Positions 7,404 through 40,569 of a DNA stretch of 64,000 nt are shown here, piece after piece. Position numbers and translations under genes: made by a program. The stretch is from an uncultured candidate division Zixibacteria bacterium (GTDB lineage Bacteria; Zixibacteria; MSB-5A5; SM1-73). The DNA lies in contig CAIVRH010000023.1 in the NCBI GenBank assembly GCA_903908285.1, positions 25,052 to 89,051 on the forward strand, written 5' to 3'. The notes under the pieces were generated by a model. That model was given only the letters and a program-made list of their open reading frames with translations, had not been told where the DNA came from and made no database searches. Numbering within the stretch: position 1 is the first letter of the stretch; every line of letters begins with the position of its first letter.

Positions 7404-8342
7404 ATGAGAGTTAAGGATGTTAAGAGGAGAATAGAAAAAGCAAATACGCTCTTAAAAGAGTGCATAGTCTGTCCCCGCAAGTGCAAGGTTAACCGGCTGA
7501 AGGGGGAGATCGGATTCTGCGGGATAGGTTCAAATCCCCGGGTGGCAAGCTATAATGTCCATCATGGGGAGGAGCCGCCTATTTCCGGGACCAAAGGATC
7601 GGGGACCATATTTTTCTCAGGCTGTAATTTGAGATGCTTGTATTGCCAGAATTTTCCCATCAGTCAGATAAGACATGGAAAGGAGATCGGAACAGAGGAA
7701 TTGGCAGATATGATGCTTTATCTCCAGTCCAAGGGGTGTCATAACATCAACTTCGTAACCCCTTCACACGTAGTTCCCCAAATCATCCAAGCCCTCTCTT
7801 TCGCCTGGGAGAAGGGATTTGAGCTTCCTTTGGTCTACAATACATCCGGATACGACAGTCTCCAATCCCTGCAACTTTTAGATGGGATAATCGATATATA
7901 TCTTCCGGATATGCGGTATTCAGACAACTCTGCCGCAAAACAGCTGTCTGGGGTGGATGACTATGTAGAGGTGAACCGGAGAGCAATAAAAGAGATGTAT
8001 CGGCAGGTGGGGAATCTGGTTGCCGGCGATAACGGCATCGCTCAAAAAGGATTGATCATACGGCATCTGATCTTGCCCAATAATTTAGCGGGAAGCGAAA
8101 AGACTTTCAAATTCATCCGTCAGGAAATTTCCGAGGAAGCTTATTTGAGTCTTTTGGGTCAATATTTCCCCAGCTTTAAAGCAGGGGAATGCGTATTAAT
8201 AGACAGGAAAATTACCCCGGTGGAATATGAATCTGCAGTGGAGAGCTTTTTTGAGTCGGGCTTGAGCCGGGGATGGATGCAGGACAGTTCGGTTTCGCCT
8301 GAAATCCCCAAAGCGAAATCGAAGAGAAGGAACCGGGCATGA
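7404..8342 (+). CDS. radical SAM protein, PflX/YjjW-like (putative activating enzyme)
   Basis: CNLRCLYCQN radical-SAM CxxxCxxC cluster with an N-terminal extra Cys-rich stretch (CPRKCKVN...FCG) typical of PflX-family activases. Confidence 0.6.
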   Translation: MRVKDVKRRIEKANTLLKECIVCPRKCKVNRLKGEIGFCGIGSNPRVASYNVHHGEEPPISGTKGSGTIFFSGCNLRCLYCQNFPISQIRHGKEIGTEELADMMLYLQSKGCHNINFVTPSHVVPQIIQALSFAWEKGFELPLVYNTSGYDSLQSLQLLDGIIDIYLPDMRYSDNSAAKQLSGVDDYVEVNRRAIKEMYRQVGNLVAGDNGIAQKGLIIRHLILPNNLAGSEKTFKFIRQEISEEAYLSLLGQYFPSFKAGECVLIDRKITPVEYESAVESFFESGLSRGWMQDSSVSPEIPKAKSKRRNRA

Positions 8343-10435
8343 GTTTAAGCGCTTGGAAGTATAGAATAACTATTTTATGCATATCTTTTCTCCTGTTTGG
8401 ATGTGCTTATTACAATACCCTGTATAATGCTAACAGATACTTCAGGGAGGGGGAGAAAGCTCAAAAAGGCGCTTCGGCGACTAATCGGCAAAGCGCGGGC
8501 AGCGCGCAATATGAGAGTGCCATAAAGAAAGCTTCCAAGGTTTTGACCTTCTATCCCAAAAGCAAATGGGCCGATGACGCTTTGTTTCTTATCGGAAGAG
8601 CCTACTTCAATATGGGGGAAGACGTCAAAGCCAAAAGGAAATTCGAAGAGTTAACTCAAAGCTTCCCTAAAAGTAAATTCATAGATGATTCGAGATATTA
8701 TATCAGTATGTGTCAATACAACTTAGGAGAAGAAGATGAAGCGATAAGCTCTTTGAGCGAGCTTTTGGATTCGAAGAAGACGGACAAAAAAAGAAAAGGT
8801 CAGGCTTCCTTTTGGATCGGCGAGATGCAATTCAAAAAAGAAGAATATGAAGATGCTATAACCAATTATGAGAAAACGTTAAACGAATTTGATCCGGATA
8901 CTCTCTCTGCAGTCACTCAGTTTCGCATCGGAGAATGTTTCTTGGCAAAAAAAGATTATCTTAAAGCGCAGGAGGCTTTTGCCCAGGTGGAGAAGCGTGA
9001 TCCCTCTAAGGATCTTTTGTTCGATTCCAAATTCAAAGTGGGAGAATGTTGTTACTGGTTGAGCGAATATCAGAAAGGTATGGATATATATGTAGCGCTT
9101 TCCCAGGACAAAAAATTCAGCAGCAAGCTTGCCGATGTTAGTTTAAAGATGGCAGAGGGATATAATTTTCTGGACGAATTGTCCCTGGCTATGAGATGGT
9201 ATACCCAGGTTACCGAGACTTATCCCAGAACCGAGGCATCCGCCAATGCTTATTTTCAGTTGGGCAGGATATATCAGGAGAAATTCGGAGACTTGGCGGA
9301 AGCCAAAAAGATGTTTGAAACCTGCAAGAGTGAAAATGCAAATTCCCCCATCGCCAAGGAGGCTTTGACCCGGAGTGCCAATATCTCCAAAATCGAGGAA
9401 TATCAAAAGGATTTATCGCAGGAAGATTCGACTAAATCCAGTATCACCTTGTTTCTTTTGGCTGAACTATATCTATTACAGATGAATCAACCCGACTCTG
9501 CACTGGATGAGTATATGACTTTAGTGGAAAAGTTTCCTCAATCCGAATATGCCCCCAAATCCCTTTACGCGGCTGCCTGGATTTGGGAAAATGTTAAAAA
9601 GGACTCCCTTGAAGCAGAGAAGATATATCGCCGAATTTTAAGTGAGTATCCCCAATCGGAATATGGGAAAATAGCACTTAAGTTTTTATCCGAAACCGGA
9701 TCCATAGGATATGCCCAACCCGATTCTTCGGATACTCTCAATCCGGAGAAGATCTACCGGCAGTCGGAAAGGCTTCTGTTTGAGGAAAACGATGTTTATT
9801 CTGCTTTGACTTTATACGATCTGATCATCGAGAAGTTTCCTCGAAGCCCCTATGCAGCAAAATCTCTCTATGCCAAGGCTTGGACCACCGAACATTTTTT
9901 AAACCCTGAAGACAGTTCCGTGATTTTGGCTTATAAAGATGTGATCGACAAGTATCCGGATTCCCAATATGCCCAGGACGCTAAAATTAAATTGGGACTT
10001 GCCCAAAAGGCTCAACCTCCTCCTCCACCACCACCCCAGACTACACCAGCTTTAGCAGACACGGCAGACACCACACAAACAGCTGCGGCTGACACCTCCG
10101 GACCCCTGTTTCCAAAAGCACCAGATCCACCACTCAAAAGGGGTGTGTTTGTGTATCCGGAAGAAGAACGCCTTTCCGGCATAAAGGGAACGGTGGTGCT
10201 GAAGATTCAGATTGGATTTGACGGGCTGGTGAAAGAAGCCGAGGTGGTTAATTCGTTAGGGAATCTGTGGATAGATGAAGCGGCTAAGAAGGCAGCTTTG
10301 AACACCACCTTTGATACTCAAAAGATGGACCCAACCGCATTGGGGGGGTGGTTTCTATATCCGGTAGAGGTTAAATCGCCTGATGAACAACCAGCGGACC
10401 ATAACGCTGATCCAACCCAACAACAGGGACAGTGA
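8339..10435 (+). CDS. TPR-repeat lipoprotein with a Pro-rich linker and a C-terminal TonB-C-like domain
   Basis: Signal/lipobox (LLFGCAYY), multiple TPR-like units, PPPPPPPPQTTP linker, and a C-terminal GVFVYPEEERLSGIKGTVVLKIQIGFDG...NTTFDT consistent with the TonB C-terminal fold. Confidence 0.6.
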   Translation: MSLSAWKYRITILCISFLLFGCAYYNTLYNANRYFREGEKAQKGASATNRQSAGSAQYESAIKKASKVLTFYPKSKWADDALFLIGRAYFNMGEDVKAKRKFEELTQSFPKSKFIDDSRYYISMCQYNLGEEDEAISSLSELLDSKKTDKKRKGQASFWIGEMQFKKEEYEDAITNYEKTLNEFDPDTLSAVTQFRIGECFLAKKDYLKAQEAFAQVEKRDPSKDLLFDSKFKVGECCYWLSEYQKGMDIYVALSQDKKFSSKLADVSLKMAEGYNFLDELSLAMRWYTQVTETYPRTEASANAYFQLGRIYQEKFGDLAEAKKMFETCKSENANSPIAKEALTRSANISKIEEYQKDLSQEDSTKSSITLFLLAELYLLQMNQPDSALDEYMTLVEKFPQSEYAPKSLYAAAWIWENVKKDSLEAEKIYRRILSEYPQSEYGKIALKFLSETGSIGYAQPDSSDTLNPEKIYRQSERLLFEENDVYSALTLYDLIIEKFPRSPYAAKSLYAKAWTTEHFLNPEDSSVILAYKDVIDKYPDSQYAQDAKIKLGLAQKAQPPPPPPPQTTPALADTADTTQTAAADTSGPLFPKAPDPPLKRGVFVYPEEERLSGIKGTVVLKIQIGFDGLVKEAEVVNSLGNLWIDEAAKKAALNTTFDTQKMDPTALGGWFLYPVEVKSPDEQPADHNADPTQQQGQ

Positions 10436-14006: not shown

Positions 14007-14882
14007 TTACGATCCACAGGGAGGCGGTCCACCTCTGAACAGATAATTGATCGAATAGACTATATCTCCAATATCGACTCTCCCGTCGCAGTTGGCATCA
14101 CCCACCAGCCCCAAAGAGAGAACAGGGACAGTGATCCTTCGGGAGGGGGGAGTGCCGTCTGCGCAGTAGGCACTGATGAGCATGAGCGAATGGGAGGGAG
14201 GGATTTCGGTAATAGAGAGAGAGTGAGGGGTTCCATTAGCCGTCTTATTAAAATATAGGGTTGCCAACACACCGGTGGTTCCGGAATCGATCGGTGTTAT
14301 CCCAGTAAAATTGGCGCGAGAGGAGATGAGAACGGTCTTCTCCGTGTTATCGATACGAACAAGATTCTGATCCGGATTCCAGCTTGATGGAATTATGCTT
14401 CCGTAGAAACTCACACTGTCTAAAGTTACCTCAACCTCACCGGGTTGATCGGCATAGCTTAAAGGTATCACGAACCCCACTAAATCCGGTCCCTCATTCA
14501 ACAATATTTTGACACTGATGGTATCGGTAGGGCCGGAAGCCATAGGAGAAATCAAGTCTGAAGACAATAATATTTTACTGCCTAACTTTACGGAGGTTCC
14601 GGAGTAAGGAATAAGACTGCACCCGGTATAACAGTAACCGATTAGTTGCATTACATCACCCATATTGATACCCGAGGAGCCATCCACATCAGCATCAATA
14701 GGATTGACAGGAGGGGGTGAGTTCTTGTAAAGATAATTTATCAGGTAGACTATATCACCGGTCTCCACTGTGCCACTATTATTAATGTCTCCAGGAATGG
14801 CGGATACCGGTGTAACAAACAAACCGCACCAAAACATGGCTAAAAAGCCACAGAAGACTAAAGAAACTATAAGCTTTTTCAT
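14007..14882 (-). CDS. secreted double-dockerin-like protein, paralog of 12441..13355
   Basis: Same architecture and ~50% identity by eye (MKKLxxxLVFCGF..., GDIVYLINYLYKN, GINMGDVMQLIGY, C-terminal GDANCDGRVDIGDIVYSINYLFRGGPPPC). Confidence 0.6.
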   Translation of the reverse strand: MKKLIVSLVFCGFLAMFWCGLFVTPVSAIPGDINNSGTVETGDIVYLINYLYKNSPPPVNPIDADVDGSSGINMGDVMQLIGYCYTGCSLIPYSGTSVKLGSKILLSSDLISPMASGPTDTISVKILLNEGPDLVGFVIPLSYADQPGEVEVTLDSVSFYGSIIPSSWNPDQNLVRIDNTEKTVLISSRANFTGITPIDSGTTGVLATLYFNKTANGTPHSLSITEIPPSHSLMLISAYCADGTPPSRRITVPVLSLGLVGDANCDGRVDIGDIVYSINYLFRGGPPPCGS

Positions 14883-18192: not shown

Positions 18193-18321
18193 TTGGCTCC
18201 TCCTTGTGATTTCTCTAATCCCCCTAAATCCCCCTTTAACAAAGGGGGATTAAAATCTTCCTTTTTACCTGAGACGGGATATATCATTGTGCCAACTTTT
18301 GACAACCAAATCCACAGATAA

Positions 18322-18358
18322 AAAAATACCCTTCCTCGGTTTTTCTGAGGAAGGGTAG
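18322..18358 (-). terminator. rho-independent terminator ending the 22585->18461 minus-strand operon
   Basis: aaaaaaataCCCTTCCTCggtttttctGAGGAAGGGtag: 9-bp GC-rich stem, with a T-run on the minus transcript. Confidence 0.65.
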
Positions 18359-18460
18359 TTATTTCAATTCGTATTATTTTCATTTTACCTTTTCTAGCTT
18401 CGCCGAACTAGATTAAAAGGCTCTTCGGTTGTACCTAATCTATTCAAGGATTCTTTCTTG

Positions 18461-19309
18461 TCAAGTATTTTTTTGGAGTGTTTCCAGCCAATCTAAATGG
18501 TAGTGAAGAAGATAAGTTTTTACTGCTTCCTTTTTTCCTTTGTATGAGTCTCGAAGGTCATTTACATAATTATCAACAAGCGGAACAATTCCTTGGTCTC
18601 TTATCTCAGACCGTTTTCGACCCCAATTTCCAGTTGGTTTGAGACATCCCCTGCCTCCTCTAAGTATCCAAGCCGGATCGTTTATAATCTTAACTTTCAA
18701 TCCTTGTTCTTCGAGAAATCTAACATGGCGACCTTGAAATGTTATTATAATTGATGGTTTTAATTCCTTTAGTTCCCTCAAAGCAAGTTCATCATTAAGT
18801 TCCCAATATTTTTCCGGTGATTCGAGATGGTTAGGATTTATATCTATTTTCTTGTGAAGAGAGAATTTGTAGTAATTTGAAACTGCAACATGGTCTTGTA
18901 CTTCGTTAAAGGTCGAATATTTCTCTTGGGATATAGAATAAATTAATACACCAGCCAAAGCAGGCAGAACCCCTCCTTGATAAGGAGCAATTGCGATTTC
19001 AGAAAAGTCCAAATCGTTTTCTGGATATTTTCTCTCAAAACCAGGGCAAGAATAATAAAGTCTTTCTACCAGTTTATCGAAGTTTTTTGAGTATAGTTCT
19101 CTGAGGGATAATTCGTTCAGGCTGAAAGGGATATTCTGTGCTGTGGCATAAATGAGAATTCTGTATCCCTCATAGTTTTTGCCAACAAACGGGATATAAG
19201 GAGGAAAAAACTGACCATCATCAGTTTTTGTAGATAATAAGTCAGCATATTTTGATAAATTTCTTAAGTCCCAATTTTGGAACTCTGTGATAAGACTTTT
19301 TATATCCAT
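18461..19309 (-). CDS. hypothetical protein, last gene of the candidate gasdermin-protease operon
   Basis: 282 aa, no signal peptide, no confident domain (only a faint resemblance to UDG-superfamily-like folds). Same strand, 99 nt after the protease gene. Confidence 0.35.
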   Translation of the reverse strand: MDIKSLITEFQNWDLRNLSKYADLLSTKTDDGQFFPPYIPFVGKNYEGYRILIYATAQNIPFSLNELSLRELYSKNFDKLVERLYYSCPGFERKYPENDLDFSEIAIAPYQGGVLPALAGVLIYSISQEKYSTFNEVQDHVAVSNYYKFSLHKKIDINPNHLESPEKYWELNDELALRELKELKPSIIITFQGRHVRFLEEQGLKVKIINDPAWILRGGRGCLKPTGNWGRKRSEIRDQGIVPLVDNYVNDLRDSYKGKKEAVKTYLLHYHLDWLETLQKNT

Positions 19310-19408: not shown

Positions 19409-20779
19409 TTATTCTTGACGATTTTCTTCCTTCTTAGTCATCGCCACGGTCGATCGAAAAACAGTCGACACCAACGGATGTTTATATGCATCCGATCCCA
19501 AAAGTCCAATATAGTAAGTGGCTAAAAACCAGGTCCAGAGCCGGAGACCGGGAGGCAGCGAATTTACGATCTCCAGATACTTCTCATCGAATTCCTCGGG
19601 CGGAGGTAAATAAATGGACAGTCCTTTTGGAAGATAGGGATTGTCGGGCACTTCGCTTGCCACCAACAATCCGGATCGGTCGAAGAAATCCAACCATGCC
19701 TGCGCTGATTTTTTCACCTCTGCCGGGAACGTTCCCTCCCGAAGTCCGCCAGCGAAAAGCTTCAAGTCTATAAAACCTTCCTTAAAGGAATAGGTACCTT
19801 CAATGCAGGTTTTGATTCTCTCCACACCATCTGAGGCGACGTAAGCGGCCAATACTCTGGCTAAATTCTCCGTCAGATTGATAAAATCCGGGAACCGGTT
19901 GCAATCAAATGCCACTTGCGTAATAAGAAGATCGGTATCGGATTCGGAAGAATTTCCGTAGGATCTCTTCGTTTCTCTTACCAACTGCTCCGCAAGCTGG
20001 ACTGAGTCTTGACCGGGACTGCTTTTTAGTTTTTGCAGTATTTTATCATAAGGATAACCGGTGCCGGGTTCCTGGTTCTCTGATGCTATAAGTATTTTTG
20101 TGAAATCATACCAGGAAGAAAGTGCCTCCAGATTGCCCATGTTGCAAGCATCCAAAGCCATAATATCGAACTTAGACCACTTGTATTTATCTTCCGGATT
20201 CAAGCGCTTCTTAAGCTCCGGCAGCGACTGTTTAACCAGATCCGCAAGTTGATGGCAATAGAGGGCGGGATCGCCGGGCGGCATTGAAATGGCATTACGC
20301 TTAAGGTATTGTCTCCAGGTGAAATCATCTTGAAGAACCCCCTTCCAGCCAAAGCCATGACCGGATAATATCAAAAGTCTCCTTTCTGCCGGGAAAAGGA
20401 CGGTATGGTCGAGGATAATCTCTTTTAAAACCCTTTGGTCGATACTCCACAAATCCGTAAATCGAGCGATAAAATCGTCTTCCAGCTCAGTATCTTGGTT
20501 TAACCGGGCAAAAAAGGAATCGGTTAATAGAGGACCATCGAAGAGGACACAGATGTTAACATCCGGGTTAGAGCCGATCGCCTTCATCTCCATCAGGTCA
20601 TCAAACAAATATTCAGCTAAATTGCAGTCCGCTGCCATATAAACCAGAATAGTCCATTTAGCCACATGGTTGATTGAGTCTAAGTTGGTTTTTGATATTT
20701 GAAAGGTAAAATCCTCGGGAGACAATCGTACGGTCTGGGGCAATCCTCCCCGATAAGGATTCCCGCTTTTAAATAACAT
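19409..20779 (-). CDS. clostripain-like (peptidase C11, clan CD caspase-fold) cysteine protease, cytoplasmic
   Basis: WTILVYMAADCNLAEY (C11 N-terminal block), ILSGHGFGWKG (catalytic His-Gly) and IMALDACNMG (catalytic Cys, DAClM motif). No signal peptide. ~200-aa C-terminal extension of unknown function. Confidence 0.6.
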   Translation of the reverse strand: MLFKSGNPYRGGLPQTVRLSPEDFTFQISKTNLDSINHVAKWTILVYMAADCNLAEYLFDDLMEMKAIGSNPDVNICVLFDGPLLTDSFFARLNQDTELEDDFIARFTDLWSIDQRVLKEIILDHTVLFPAERRLLILSGHGFGWKGVLQDDFTWRQYLKRNAISMPPGDPALYCHQLADLVKQSLPELKKRLNPEDKYKWSKFDIMALDACNMGNLEALSSWYDFTKILIASENQEPGTGYPYDKILQKLKSSPGQDSVQLAEQLVRETKRSYGNSSESDTDLLITQVAFDCNRFPDFINLTENLARVLAAYVASDGVERIKTCIEGTYSFKEGFIDLKLFAGGLREGTFPAEVKKSAQAWLDFFDRSGLLVASEVPDNPYLPKGLSIYLPPPEEFDEKYLEIVNSLPPGLRLWTWFLATYYIGLLGSDAYKHPLVSTVFRSTVAMTKKEENRQE

Positions 20780-20939: not shown

Positions 20940-21752
20940 TCACCAAGAATCCAGGTCGATCAATTCATTCTGTGCCAGCAGAACCTCCTGCCGCGGTTTT
21001 TCCCCACCGGCTCCTTTCATTACCAGGTTATCTGAGTCCATCTTCAGCCGAAAATGTGCTTTTCCCTGAACATCCTCCTCCACCCAAAAAGAAGCTGCCT
21101 TGAAGCCGAATTTCAAGAACTTGTTCCCTTGATAAGATACTTTTGCAGTTTCGTCCTTGGAGACTTTTATCCCTCCCGTTCCCCCAAACAGGCTCTGGAT
21201 TCCCTTAACGTCGAGGTCCAGCACCTGCTGGCTGGAATTGTAAGCGATCACTCCGAACGAGTTGGATTTGATGGTTTCGGTTATGATATGCGCCTCGCCT
21301 TCCTCATTGATGCATTCCATCAGAAGGGTGTTTGTTTTGGGCTTGGCGGAGGACAGGTAATCGTCGATGGCCGTGATGAAGACCGAATCGGAGAGTACGT
21401 TCTCAAACACGATCTCGATCTGAACCGCCTTTTCGTAGCCGGCATTCAGTTTTCCGGAAGCCGCACCCATAGCGGAGAGATATTTATTCATCAGATCCAT
21501 GCCCAAGCGTGAATCCAGCTTGCTGGTCCTTTTACTGGTAATTTTGCCGGCGGTCTGATCATATTTGATTGGAGGAACGGATGCGGATTCTTCCACAAAA
21601 TGGGATAAGGGTCCCAATATCTCTAATTTCTTCTTCTTTCCTCCGATGATCAACAGCGGCTCGACATTCTCCCTGGGAAGACTTATTACATTGTAACCCA
21701 AGTGATTCAGATAGGTGAGCGAATCGTCTTTGCAAAACATGATTTCCTCCAT
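20940..21752 (-). CDS. candidate bacterial gasdermin (bGSDM)-like pore-forming protein
   Basis: ~266-270 aa. From the second Met (21740) the protein starts MFC with Cys at position 3. LNHLGYNVISLPRENVEPLLIIGGKKKK resembles the gasdermin N-terminal L..G..IPV.SL....F.P..LVVRK motif. Beta-rich composition. Sits immediately upstream of a caspase-fold protease. Arg 16 residues from the C-terminus (EKPR|QEVLLAQNELIDLDSW). Confidence 0.5.
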   Translation of the reverse strand: MEEIMFCKDDSLTYLNHLGYNVISLPRENVEPLLIIGGKKKKLEILGPLSHFVEESASVPPIKYDQTAGKITSKRTSKLDSRLGMDLMNKYLSAMGAASGKLNAGYEKAVQIEIVFENVLSDSVFITAIDDYLSSAKPKTNTLLMECINEEGEAHIITETIKSNSFGVIAYNSSQQVLDLDVKGIQSLFGGTGGIKVSKDETAKVSYQGNKFLKFGFKAASFWVEEDVQGKAHFRLKMDSDNLVMKGAGGEKPRQEVLLAQNELIDLDSW

Positions 21753-21784: not shown

Positions 21785-22108
21785 TTAGATTAATGCCAGC
21801 AGCCTATCAATTATGAGCTTGGTAATTCCATTGGCGAGGCTTTGTGCTCGTGCCCTGGCCTCGACTTTCATTTTAAGCGTTTGCATCACCGAAAGATCTC
21901 GGATATCGCCGACATATCCTTCAAATTGTTCCTTGGTTATCAGACCCATAGCCAGCTGGTTTAGGTATATCTCCAATTTTTCCCCCTGTCTTTGGATGAA
22001 CTCCTCCGAATCCGCTTTGGCATCACTGACCAAGTTCTTGAGTTCATCCTTTGCCAGTTTGCCGCTGTCATCTTTCAATCGGTCCAGCCAATCCTCCCAT
22101 GCACTCAT
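21785..22108 (-). CDS. small helical hypothetical protein (107 aa) in the gasdermin-like operon
   Basis: Coding-like acidic/helical sequence. 32 nt upstream of the gasdermin-like gene and 12 nt downstream of the lipoprotein gene. Confidence 0.4.
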   Translation of the reverse strand: MSAWEDWLDRLKDDSGKLAKDELKNLVSDAKADSEEFIQRQGEKLEIYLNQLAMGLITKEQFEGYVGDIRDLSVMQTLKMKVEARARAQSLANGITKLIIDRLLALI

Positions 22109-22120
22109 ACTTGTTCCCTC

Positions 22121-22585
22121 CTATTCATTCTTGTTTTTAATTCTCTCGGTCTGAATGGCGATGTCGAATGCTTCCGTCAGGTTTTGCTTCTGGTTACTCA
22201 AATGGGTTGCGCTCCATTTTCCATTTTTCATCCGGTCATCCACATGTTTTTCAAACAGATTCCGGAGGATCTTGATCTGCTCAGAAGTTTCCGCATTCTT
22301 CTGGCCCTTTCCATATTCATATTCGTACATCTGGGCGAGTTTAAGACGAAGACCGGCAATCTGGCTGGAATTCAAGGAATCGGTTGCAAAACTGTCATAC
22401 AGAGCCAGGATTTCGGGTTTCAGGTCGGTTAAGTTTTTATAGGTGACCGGATCATAGTAGGTGACGAATCCTAACTGGTGAGCGCAGCCACATAGACTCA
22501 GCCAGAAAAGCAAAATAGCCGCCACTTCCAGCTTCCGTCGAAAGACCTGCTCTACGGCATGAGTCCTAACGAAAGGGATCCCCAT
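22121..22585 (-). CDS. putative lipoprotein (154 aa), first gene of the operon
   Basis: Signal peptide with Cys (LLFWLSLCGC). A promoter-like TTGACA-17-TATGGT lies on the minus strand at ~22700-22735. Confidence 0.45.
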   Translation of the reverse strand: MGIPFVRTHAVEQVFRRKLEVAAILLFWLSLCGCAHQLGFVTYYDPVTYKNLTDLKPEILALYDSFATDSLNSSQIAGLRLKLAQMYEYEYGKGQKNAETSEQIKILRNLFEKHVDDRMKNGKWSATHLSNQKQNLTEAFDIAIQTERIKNKNE

Positions 22586-40472: not shown

Positions 40473-40569
40473 GGAAGTGGATAGGATCTGGTGGTCCTTG
40501 CGGACTTCAAATCCGTCGTCCCTCCGGTTCTCCGGGGGGAGGTGGGTTCGATTCCCACCCCTTCCGCCA
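40473..40569 (+). tRNA. selC: tRNA-Sec (selC), anticodon UCA
   Basis: Hand-folded: acceptor GGAAGUG(G), 6-bp D-stem AGGAUC/GGUCCU with 4-nt loop (the Sec hallmark), anticodon stem GCGGA/UCCGU with loop CUUCAAA (UCA), long extra arm CCCUCCGGuucuCCGGGGGAGG, T-arm GUGGGuucgauuCCCAC, CCA encoded; 97 nt. Confidence 0.8.

What the first reader, a model, noticed from the sequence alone, without database searches (positions are those of the whole stretch)
20940..21752. Gasdermin-like protein: N-terminal Cys3 and a C-terminal Arg positioned for clostripain-type cleavage
Starting at the second Met (21740) the protein begins MFC, so Cys is at position 3, the position of the palmitoylated Cys in characterised bacterial gasdermins. 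LGYNVISLPRENVEPLLIIGGKKKK mimics the conserved N-terminal gasdermin motif seen in GSDMD (IPVTSL...FQPYCLVVRK). Clostripain-family enzymes cut after Arg, and an Arg lies 16 residues from the C-terminus (EKPR|QEVLLAQNELIDLDSW), the right distance for an auto-inhibitory tail.
Basis: inference. Interest (0 to 1): 0.8.

Follow-up and report, generated by a model that had tools for sequence, protein, structure and literature searches.

The report
Bacterial gasdermin with clostripain-family activator

Summary
The ORF at 20940-21752(-) is real and is a bacterial gasdermin (bGSDM): PADLOC bGSDM E=5e-64, NCBIfam prok_gasdermin 173.5 bits (cut-off 100), Vitiosangium bGSDM 7N51 E=1.6e-40. An AlphaFold model (pLDDT 86.8) matches 7N51 at TM 0.84.

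The true start is the second ATG (21740). A GGAGG lies 5 nt upstream, every homolog starts M-x-C-K-D, and the NCBI gene call is 266 aa. Cys3 aligns with the palmitoylated Cys4 of Vitiosangium.

The downstream gene (19409-20779, -) is a Peptidase_C11 with His141/Cys212 and the S1 Asp210, so a basic P1 is expected. The gasdermin-C11 pair recurs as the only conserved genes in at least 8 different genomic contexts.

In contrast, Lys/Arg242-Gly243 is invariant for the basic residue in 12/12 C11-paired gasdermins. It lies in the middle of the only disordered loop (237-247), and the motif occurs in 14 of 122 gasdermins overall.

The verdict is a known kind of system (gasdermin plus activating protease) with a protease family not listed in the founding survey or found in the literature searched. 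The trigger is unknown. Interest is moderate.

The parts
20940..21740 (-). Bacterial gasdermin (bGSDM) coding sequence, 266 aa plus stop, read from the second ATG
   Evidence: ORF. PADLOC bGSDM E=5.2e-64. NCBIfam prok_gasdermin 173.5 bits, above the cut-off of 100. PDB 7N51 E=1.6e-40. AlphaFold model pLDDT 86.8 with Foldseek TM 0.84 to 7N51. The 266-aa form is the NCBI/ENA gene call on 9 contigs.
21741..21752 (-). Upstream in-frame ATG (21752-21750) plus three codons, probably not translated. It contains the Shine-Dalgarno GGAGG (21750-21746), 5 nt before the real start.
   Evidence: Sequence read. GGAGG verified. All homologs begin M-x-C-K-D.
21732..21734 (-). Cys3 codon, the predicted S-palmitoylation site
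   Evidence: Aligns with Vitiosangium Cys4. Nearly invariant in homologs. Palmitoylation of C3/C4 was shown for Bradyrhizobium and Vitiosangium bGSDMs (paper). Not tested for this protein.
21000..21032 (-). Predicted disordered cleavage loop, residues 237-247 (DNLVMKGAGGE)
   Evidence: It is the only segment of the AlphaFold model with pLDDT below 50. Coordinates checked.
21012..21017 (-). Lys242-Gly243 (K246-G247 in 270-aa numbering), the best candidate for the scissile bond P1-P1'
   Evidence: K/R in 12/12 and G in 11/12 C11-paired gasdermins, within an otherwise hypervariable loop. The motif is found in 14 of 122 family representatives.
20991..20993 (-). It may be a lineage-specific secondary site.
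   Evidence: Present. Conserved only in the window and L002 (93% identity); other residues in the 10 other C11-paired homologs.
20943..21014 (-). Predicted auto-inhibitory C-terminal peptide (residues 243-266). It includes Leu260, which aligns with Vitiosangium L260, the residue that caps the palmitoyl tunnel.
   Evidence: Alignment to 7N51. The role of L260 and of the C-terminal peptide comes from the paper. Model pLDDT is about 80 for residues 251-266.
19409..20779 (-). Peptidase_C11 (clostripain-family, clan CD) cysteine protease, 456 aa, with no signal peptide. It is the predicted gasdermin activator. His141 is at 20357-20359, Asp210 at 20150-20152 and Cys212 at 20144-20146.
   Evidence: Pfam PF03415 E=6.6e-31. 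PDB C11 hits. AlphaFold pLDDT 91.3 with Foldseek top hits clostripain 9CIP and thetapain 6N9J. H141, D210 and C212 are invariant or nearly invariant in 52 homologs. Codons verified.

Best explanation
This is a two-gene cell-suicide module. A bacterial gasdermin (266 aa, starting MFC) is held inactive by its own roughly 24-residue C-terminal peptide and, by homology, by a palmitoyl group on Cys3 buried in a hydrophobic tunnel. The gene immediately downstream encodes a cytoplasmic clostripain-family (C11, clan CD) cysteine protease. It has an intact His141/Cys212 dyad and the S1 Asp210 that directs cleavage after Lys or Arg.

When the protease becomes active, it cuts the disordered linker (residues 237-250). 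The most likely bond is the conserved one, hydrophobic-hydrophobic-Lys242|Gly243. Arg250 is a possible additional, lineage-specific site. Loss of the C-terminal peptide frees the N-terminal domain to insert its lipid anchor, oligomerise and form large membrane pores. That kills the cell, presumably as abortive infection against phage.

Shown here: the family membership of both proteins, the folds, the catalytic and specificity residues, the conserved gene pairing, and the conservation pattern of the loop.

Inferred: palmitoylation, the cleavage event and its position, pore formation, and the defence role.

Unknown: what switches the protease on. It carries no recognisable sensor domain. A C11-type self-processing step in the basic-rich segment after His141 (TWR156...KR161) is a possibility only.
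For: Gasdermin identity and fold:
-.

Start codon and Cys3:
-.

C11 identity, fold and key residues:
-.
- Meaning of Asp177/His133/Cys179/Lys147 in PmC11 and of Asp229 in clostripain: PMC4850288.

Conserved pairing:
- A gasdermin lies immediately upstream of the C11 gene on the same strand in L002, L003, L004, L006, L007, L008/L009, L014, L015 and the P0012 contig, each in a different neighbourhood.
- These two are the only gene families shared across the loci.
- Paired C11 partners go down to 41% identity and paired gasdermins down to 25%.

Loop:
- Residues 237-247 are the only low-confidence segment.
- K/R242 occurs in 12/12 and G243 in 11/12 C11-paired gasdermins, while flanking loop positions vary freely.
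- The motif occurs in 14 of 122 family representatives.
- The S8-paired relatives L010 and L011 lack it.

Functional calibration:
- In the closest solved homolog (Vitiosangium), an engineered cut at residues 237/238 that removes 29 aa gives active pores (PMC10153256).
Against: - No experiment exists on this protein or on any C11-paired gasdermin that I could find.
- The conserved K/R-G could be kept for a structural or membrane-related reason rather than as a scissile bond.
- A basic residue also aligns at this column in a CHAT-paired gasdermin (L013) and in one of unknown partner (L001), so it is not exclusive to C11 partners.
- The 12 paired sequences are phylogenetically related, so 12/12 overstates the number of independent observations.
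- The module lies among housekeeping genes (an ABC ATPase and the pyrR-pyrB-pyrC operon), not in a recognisable defence island, and has the same G+C content as its surroundings. A defence role is therefore assumed, not shown.
- The gap between the gasdermin and the C11 gene is 160 nt here, against 10-30 nt in most relatives. This leaves room for separate regulation.
Confidence: 0.7

Rival explanations
1. It uses the same module, but the activating cut is after Arg250 (R254 in 270-aa numbering) and removes 16 residues.
For: - Arg is the classical clostripain P1.
- R250 is at the C-terminal edge of the flexible linker.
- A 16-residue inhibitory peptide is what was delineated in Bradyrhizobium bGSDM.
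- R250 is kept in the 93%-identical relative L002.
Against: - The position is E, Q, Y, S, T, D, A or H in the other 10 C11-paired gasdermins.
- It is already lost at 76% identity (P0002).
- It is preceded by Pro at P2 and lies just outside the segment with pLDDT below 50.
- A basic residue in this zone is expected by chance.
- PmC11 accepts Lys as well as Arg, so Arg is not required.
Confidence: 0.15
2. The C11 protease is not the activator of the gasdermin. The two genes are neighbours for another reason: the protease may process a different substrate, or degrade or inactivate the gasdermin. Alternatively the gasdermin is activated by another protease or without cleavage.
For: - Close C11 relatives occur without a gasdermin. 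L016 has one next to a caspase-like gene and a serine-hydrolase-like gene, and L017 has one alone.
- The protease has no sensor domain.
Against: - Strict adjacency, order and strand are kept across at least 8 unrelated neighbourhoods, and no third gene is conserved.
- A basic motif matching the predicted S1 pocket is conserved in the substrate loop.
- 43 of 50 bGSDMs surveyed have a protease gene nearby, and proteolytic activation was shown for Runella.
Confidence: 0.1
3. The module is a decaying or non-functional remnant, or serves a non-defence form of programmed cell death (stress or development) in this chromosome.
For: - The setting is housekeeping and the same insertion point is shared with a 55%-identical relative (L006), which suggests long vertical residence.
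- One relative (L004) has a split gasdermin.
- There is no match in viral contigs.
Against: - Both ORFs are intact with all key residues.
- The identical protease is found on 8 contigs from several samples.
- Strong conservation of both proteins argues for selection.
Confidence: 0.05

Closest known systems
Vitiosangium sp. bGSDM (PDB 7N51 inactive, 8SL0/9A84 pore). Its natural neighbour is a CHAT protease.
   Same: - It is the closest solved homolog: E=1.6e-40, about 32-38% identity, TM 0.84.
- Both are 266 aa long.
- Its Cys4 corresponds to Cys3 here and its L260 to L260 here.
- Both have a short C-terminal inhibitory peptide after a flexible loop.
   Different: - The partner protease is CHAT (Table S1), not C11.
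- Its loop reads ...AIAMALDAAGG..., with no Lys/Arg-Gly.
- Its natural cleavage site was not determined in the papers read; the active form was made with an engineered thrombin site.
Runella zeae bGSDM with its caspase-like (CHAT, LRR-fused) protease, the only natural bGSDM cleavage site described in the papers read
   Same: - Both are two-gene gasdermin-plus-clan-CD-protease units.
- Cleavage is in the loop just before the last roughly 21 residues, and Gly at P1' is important.
- The N-terminal Cys is required for efficient pore formation.
   Different: - P1 is Leu247, a non-polar residue. Here a basic P1 is predicted from the S1 Asp.
- The protease family is CHAT with leucine-rich repeats. 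Here it is C11 without repeats.
- Foldseek reports only about 12-15% identity.
C11 peptidases PmC11 (P. merdae), clostripain (9CIP) and thetapain (6N9J)
   Same: - Same fold.
- Same His/Cys dyad, and the Asp two residues before the Cys that forms the S1 pocket.
- A C-terminal domain follows the caspase-like core.
   Different: - The known enzymes are secreted or lipoprotein digestive or virulence proteases. This one shows no signal peptide by eye and is genetically tied to an intracellular substrate.
- Identity is only 17-18%.
- It fails the clostripain equivalog model: 41 bits against a cut-off of 550.
- It carries a conserved roughly 40-residue N-terminal extension (Y9, P14, D23, F24).
Protease-effector defence modules (caspase, trypsin or S8 proteases with alpha/beta-hydrolase, MBL, Pepco or EACC1 effectors; PMC12642450)
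   Same: The logic is the same: a latent death effector is licensed by site-specific proteolysis. A relative of this C11 (L016) sits beside a caspase-like gene and a serine-hydrolase-like gene.
   Different: The effector here is a gasdermin. C11 and 'clan CD' do not occur in that paper's main text.

Membership tests
Bacterial gasdermin (PF26164 Bact_GSDM / NCBIfam NF051890 / PADLOC PDLC02986) | Sequence scores above the curated family threshold over the full length | tested here: met
   NCBIfam equivalog 173.5 bits against a cut-off of 100. PADLOC E=5.2e-64, profile positions 1-257 of 257. Homologs carry PF26164. The local Pfam copy gave no hit, although PF26164 is on record for all homologs.
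Bacterial gasdermin | Gasdermin N-terminal-domain fold without the large eukaryotic C-terminal domain, with a short C-terminal peptide instead | tested here: met
   The AlphaFold model has pLDDT 86.8 and pTM 0.85. Foldseek gives 7N51 TM 0.84, followed by 7N50, 7N52 and then GSDMA3/GSDMD. This is a predicted structure, not a solved one.
Bacterial gasdermin | Conserved N-terminal Cys (position 3/4) that is S-palmitoylated | tested here: met
   The residue is present and aligned with Vitiosangium C4. The modification itself cannot be tested with these tools.
Bacterial gasdermin | Proteolytic removal of the C-terminal peptide triggers pore formation and cell death | not testable with these tools
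   This needs cleavage, liposome-leakage and toxicity assays.
bGSDM-protease operon (gasdermin defence system) | A protease gene lies directly adjacent and the pairing is conserved | tested here: met
   The C11 gene starts 160 nt downstream on the same strand. The pair is conserved in at least 8 contexts.
bGSDM-protease operon with a caspase-like Peptidase_C14 or CHAT protease (the characterised type) | The partner protease belongs to C14 or CHAT | tested here: not met
   The partner hits only PF03415 Peptidase_C11 and no PADLOC caspase model. C11 belongs to the same clan (CD) but is a different family. The founding survey lists Caspase, CHAT, Subtilase, Trypsin-like and Peptidase U49 only.
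Peptidase family C11 (clostripain family) | Pfam PF03415 above the gathering score, and a C11 fold | tested here: met
   108.6 bits against a cut-off of 25.8. Foldseek top hits are 9CIP, 6N9J and 6MZO, each with probability 1.00.
Peptidase family C11 | Catalytic His/Cys dyad and the S1 Asp two residues before the Cys | tested here: met
   GHG at His141 and D210-A-C212. H141 and D210 are invariant and C212 nearly invariant in 52 homologs. The roles are taken from PmC11.
Peptidase family C11 | Cleavage after Arg/Lys, and activation by self-processing in the loop after the catalytic His | not testable with these tools
   Basic residues (K146, R156, K160, R161) follow His141, but none is conserved across the whole subfamily. 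This needs enzymology.
Clostripain proper (TIGR02806 equivalog) | Score above the equivalog cut-off | tested here: not met
   41.2 bits against a cut-off of 550. It is a family member, not an ortholog of clostripain.

The most novel reading that the evidence does not exclude
Clostripain-family (C11) peptidases would be a previously unreported, sensor-less class of gasdermin activators. They would recognise a conserved hydrophobic-hydrophobic-Lys/Arg|Gly motif. This would be a bacterial gasdermin system with a basic P1 like that of metacaspases and paracaspases. The same C11 subfamily may also serve as an executioner protease for other death effectors, for example the hydrolase-type module in L016.
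Probability: 0.45. Interest if true: 0.5.

Novelty: new variant of a known kind. Interest (0 to 1): 0.42.

Why it matters
Bacterial gasdermins are the ancestors of the animal pyroptosis executioners. Of the papers read here, only Runella's natural cleavage site is described, and it unexpectedly has a non-polar P1.

A gasdermin clade tied to a C11 protease offers three things:
- A clear, testable prediction of the scissile bond (Lys242|Gly243).
- A further protease family among gasdermin activators, within the caspase clan.
- A compact two-gene system with no sensor domain, in which to ask how such a protease is kept silent and what switches it on.

It also gives C11 peptidases, known mainly as secreted digestive enzymes, a predicted intracellular regulatory role. 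The overall logic of protease, gasdermin and pore is already established, so this extends a known scheme rather than adding a new principle.

Tried and rejected
- The local Pfam scan of the gasdermin returned nothing, although PF26164 is on record for all homologs. PADLOC and NCBIfam settled the identity.
- A genome scan with the broad alignment A1 failed because no stretch was conserved enough.
- With the tighter alignment A2, genome contigs gave one locus (L001, a Nitrospirae MAG on a short contig with no protease visible) and metagenome contigs gave four. Viral contigs gave none.
- I tested whether the window's extra neighbours belong to the system: the 282-aa, 107-aa and 154-aa genes. They have no family hits. 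They are absent from all more distant loci, including the syntenic L006, so I rejected them as core parts.
- I tested whether the 294-aa gene upstream of the C11 in L016 is a divergent gasdermin. It gave no hit even with all HMMER filters off, and it has a serine-hydrolase AHSLG motif. Rejected.
- I looked for a shared cleavage motif between the gasdermin loop (MK|G) and the protease's own GWK146G. Position 146 is not conserved. Rejected.
- The GSDMD N-terminal motif resemblance found no support in a profile search of PDB sequences.
- Literature searches for gasdermin with clostripain, C11 or PF03415 found no paper linking them.
- The organism was not identified. The identical protease occurs in several metagenome assemblies.

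Full report
**1. What is in the sequence**

The minus-strand ORF 20940-21752 (270 aa) exists as described. It has two in-frame ATGs, at 21752 and 21740. Three observations favour the second one.
- A GGAGG at 21750-21746 lies 5 nt before the second ATG, and nothing comparable precedes the first.
- Every homolog begins M-x-C-K-D.
- The 266-aa form is the gene call present in NCBI/ENA on 9 contigs, while the 270-aa form occurs once.

I therefore number from the second Met. With this start the protein begins MFC, so Cys is residue 3.

**2. Identity of the protein**

Sequence evidence for a bacterial gasdermin:
- It matches the PADLOC bGSDM model end to end (E=5.2e-64).
- It passes the NCBIfam prok_gasdermin equivalog (173.5 bits against a cut-off of 100).
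- Its best solved relative is the Vitiosangium bGSDM 7N51 (E=1.6e-40).

Structural evidence:
- An AlphaFold model built on 48 homologs is confident (pLDDT 86.8, pTM 0.85).
- The model superposes on 7N51 with TM 0.84. The next matches are the Bradyrhizobium and Runella bGSDMs, then the mammalian GSDMA3, GSDMB and GSDMD.

Residue correspondences:
- Cys3 aligns with Vitiosangium Cys4. That residue, and Bradyrhizobium Cys3, carry the palmitoyl thioester seen in the crystal structures and are needed for efficient pore formation (papers).
- Leu260 aligns with Vitiosangium L260, the C-terminal-peptide residue that caps the palmitoyl tunnel.

The family is large, with 720 clusters at 50% identity reaching E<=1e-3. 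Of 122 full-length representatives, 95 have a Cys at positions 2-5.

A profile of the family touches GSDMD only weakly (E=0.2), and in another region: positions 115-174, around EAHIITETIKS. The N-terminal segment is nevertheless one of the most conserved parts of bacterial gasdermins.

**3. The neighbour**

The next gene on the same strand (19409-20779, 456 aa) is a Peptidase_C11 (PF03415, E=6.6e-31).
- Its AlphaFold model (pLDDT 91.3) matches clostripain 9CIP and the Bacteroides and Parabacteroides C11 enzymes.
- His141 (in GHG), Cys212 and Asp210 (in D-A-C) are invariant or nearly so in 52 homologs.
- In PmC11 the equivalent Asp177 forms the S1 pocket and the enzyme cuts after Arg or Lys. 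In clostripain the equivalent is Asp229 (PMC4850288). A basic P1 is therefore a reasonable prediction.
- The protein is not clostripain itself: it scores 41 bits against an equivalog cut-off of 550.
- The N-terminus has no hydrophobic signal sequence (read). It carries a conserved roughly 40-residue extension.

**4. Is the pairing meaningful?**

Yes. A gasdermin immediately followed by a C11 gene on the same strand is found in these places:
- L006, which is syntenic with the window, lying between an ABC ATPase gene and pyrR.
- L007, L008/L009, L003, L004, L002, L014 and L015.
- The contig carrying P0012.

Apart from L006, each of these lies in an unrelated neighbourhood.

An all-against-all comparison of the flanks finds only these two gene families shared. 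The window's additional small genes (107 and 154 aa upstream, 282 aa downstream) are kept only in same-species contigs and are absent from L006.

Related gasdermins sit next to other proteases. L010 and L011 have Peptidase_S8, and L013 has an EAD11/CHAT protein. C11 relatives at 35-37% identity occur without a gasdermin (L016, L017).

**5. Where is it cut?**

The model has a single disordered segment, residues 237-247 (DNLVMKGAGGE).

I aligned the 12 gasdermins whose C11 partner is documented; two of them (P0005 and P0006) were paired only by matching contig lengths. Pairwise identity among them ranges from 25 to 94%. Position 242 is K or R in all 12 and position 243 is G in 11. They are preceded by two hydrophobic residues, and the neighbouring loop positions vary freely.

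In the family at large:
- The hydrophobic-hydrophobic-[K/R]-G motif at this distance from the C-terminus occurs in 14 of 122 representatives.
- Some K/R in this zone occurs in 88 of 122, so the mere presence of an Arg carries little information.

Two published data points calibrate the position.
- The engineered Vitiosangium cut that yields pores lies at residues 237/238 and removes 29 aa.

A cut at Lys242|Gly243, releasing 24 residues, fits this picture. R250 may be an extra site in this lineage.

Two caveats apply.
- The 12 sequences are not independent.
- A basic residue also aligns here in the CHAT-paired L013 and in L001, whose partner is unknown.

**6. Mechanism, and what is inferred**

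Shown by computation:
- Both family memberships and both folds.
- The catalytic and specificity residues.
- The conserved operon.
- The loop location and its conservation.

Inferred from the characterised bGSDMs:
- Palmitoylation of Cys3.
- Auto-inhibition by the C-terminal peptide.
- Activation by cleavage, followed by pore formation and cell death.

The trigger is unknown. The protease has no repeat or NTPase sensor domain. C11 enzymes are often zymogens that self-process after the catalytic His. This protein has basic residues there (K146, R156, K160, R161), but none is conserved across the subfamily. The module has the same G+C content as its surroundings (0.463 against 0.445). It sits among housekeeping genes, and nothing similar was found in viral contigs.

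**7. Comparison with what is known, and novelty**

The scheme of gasdermin plus adjacent activating protease is established. The founding survey lists Caspase (C14), CHAT, Subtilase, Trypsin-like and Peptidase U49 partners. Neither its text nor its tables mention C11, clostripain or PF03415.

Full-text searches of the held library found no paper linking bacterial gasdermins with C11 enzymes. A recent survey of protease-effector modules has no occurrence of 'C11' or 'clan CD' in its main text.

I therefore class this as a new variant of a known kind. The effector and the logic are the same, the activator is a different family within the caspase clan, and a basic P1 is predicted. The absence of a report is limited to the library I could search.

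**8. Verdict**

The GSDMD motif argument should be dropped. Interest is moderate, at 0.42.

Noticed in passing
L016 1355-5356 (GCA_035536455.1, DATLOC010000006.1): A C11 protease of the same subfamily (37% identity) follows two genes instead of a gasdermin. One is a caspase-like 585-aa gene (PADLOC 'caspase', 2e-7). The other is a 294-aa protein with an AHSLG serine-hydrolase motif. The arrangement resembles the recently described alpha/beta-hydrolase protease-effector modules, here with two clan-CD proteases.
   Followed up: partly
L017 4001-5356: A C11 homolog (35% identity) has no gasdermin or other obvious effector on the same strand upstream. The neighbouring genes are coiled-coil-like and of unknown function.
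   Followed up: partly
L004 7992-8800: The gasdermin next to a C11 gene is split into two overlapping reading frames (7992-8411 and 8339-8800). This is either a frameshifted pseudogene or an assembly error.
   Followed up: no
window 18461-19309 (-), 21785-22108 (-), 22121-22585 (-): Three ORFs flank the module on the same strand (282, 107 and 154 aa). They have no hits in Pfam, PADLOC or NCBIfam. They are kept only in same-species contigs and are absent from the syntenic locus L006. They may be lineage-specific accessories or unrelated insertions.
   Followed up: partly
window 18320-18424 (-): An Rfam PyrR-binding leader (55.8 bits, gathering score 54) lies upstream of pyrR-pyrB-pyrC. The gasdermin module is inserted just upstream of this pyrimidine operon, at the same position as in L006.
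   Followed up: partly
window 40473-40565 (+): A tRNA-Sec gene (Rfam 67.7 bits), so the organism uses selenocysteine.
   Followed up: no
window 19409-20779 (-), residues 1-40 of the C11 protease: A strongly conserved N-terminal extension lies ahead of the caspase-like core (Y9, P14, L19, D23, F24, S29, N32 each in at least 90% of 59 homologs). I saw no counterpart in the alignments to solved C11 enzymes. It may be a regulatory or pro-segment.
   Followed up: no
window 14007-14882 (-): A 291-aa protein with a signal-peptide-like N-terminus and repeated dockerin-like 'GD(I/V)N..G.V...D(I/V)..L(I/V)NYL' segments at both ends. It is unrelated to the finding.
   Followed up: no
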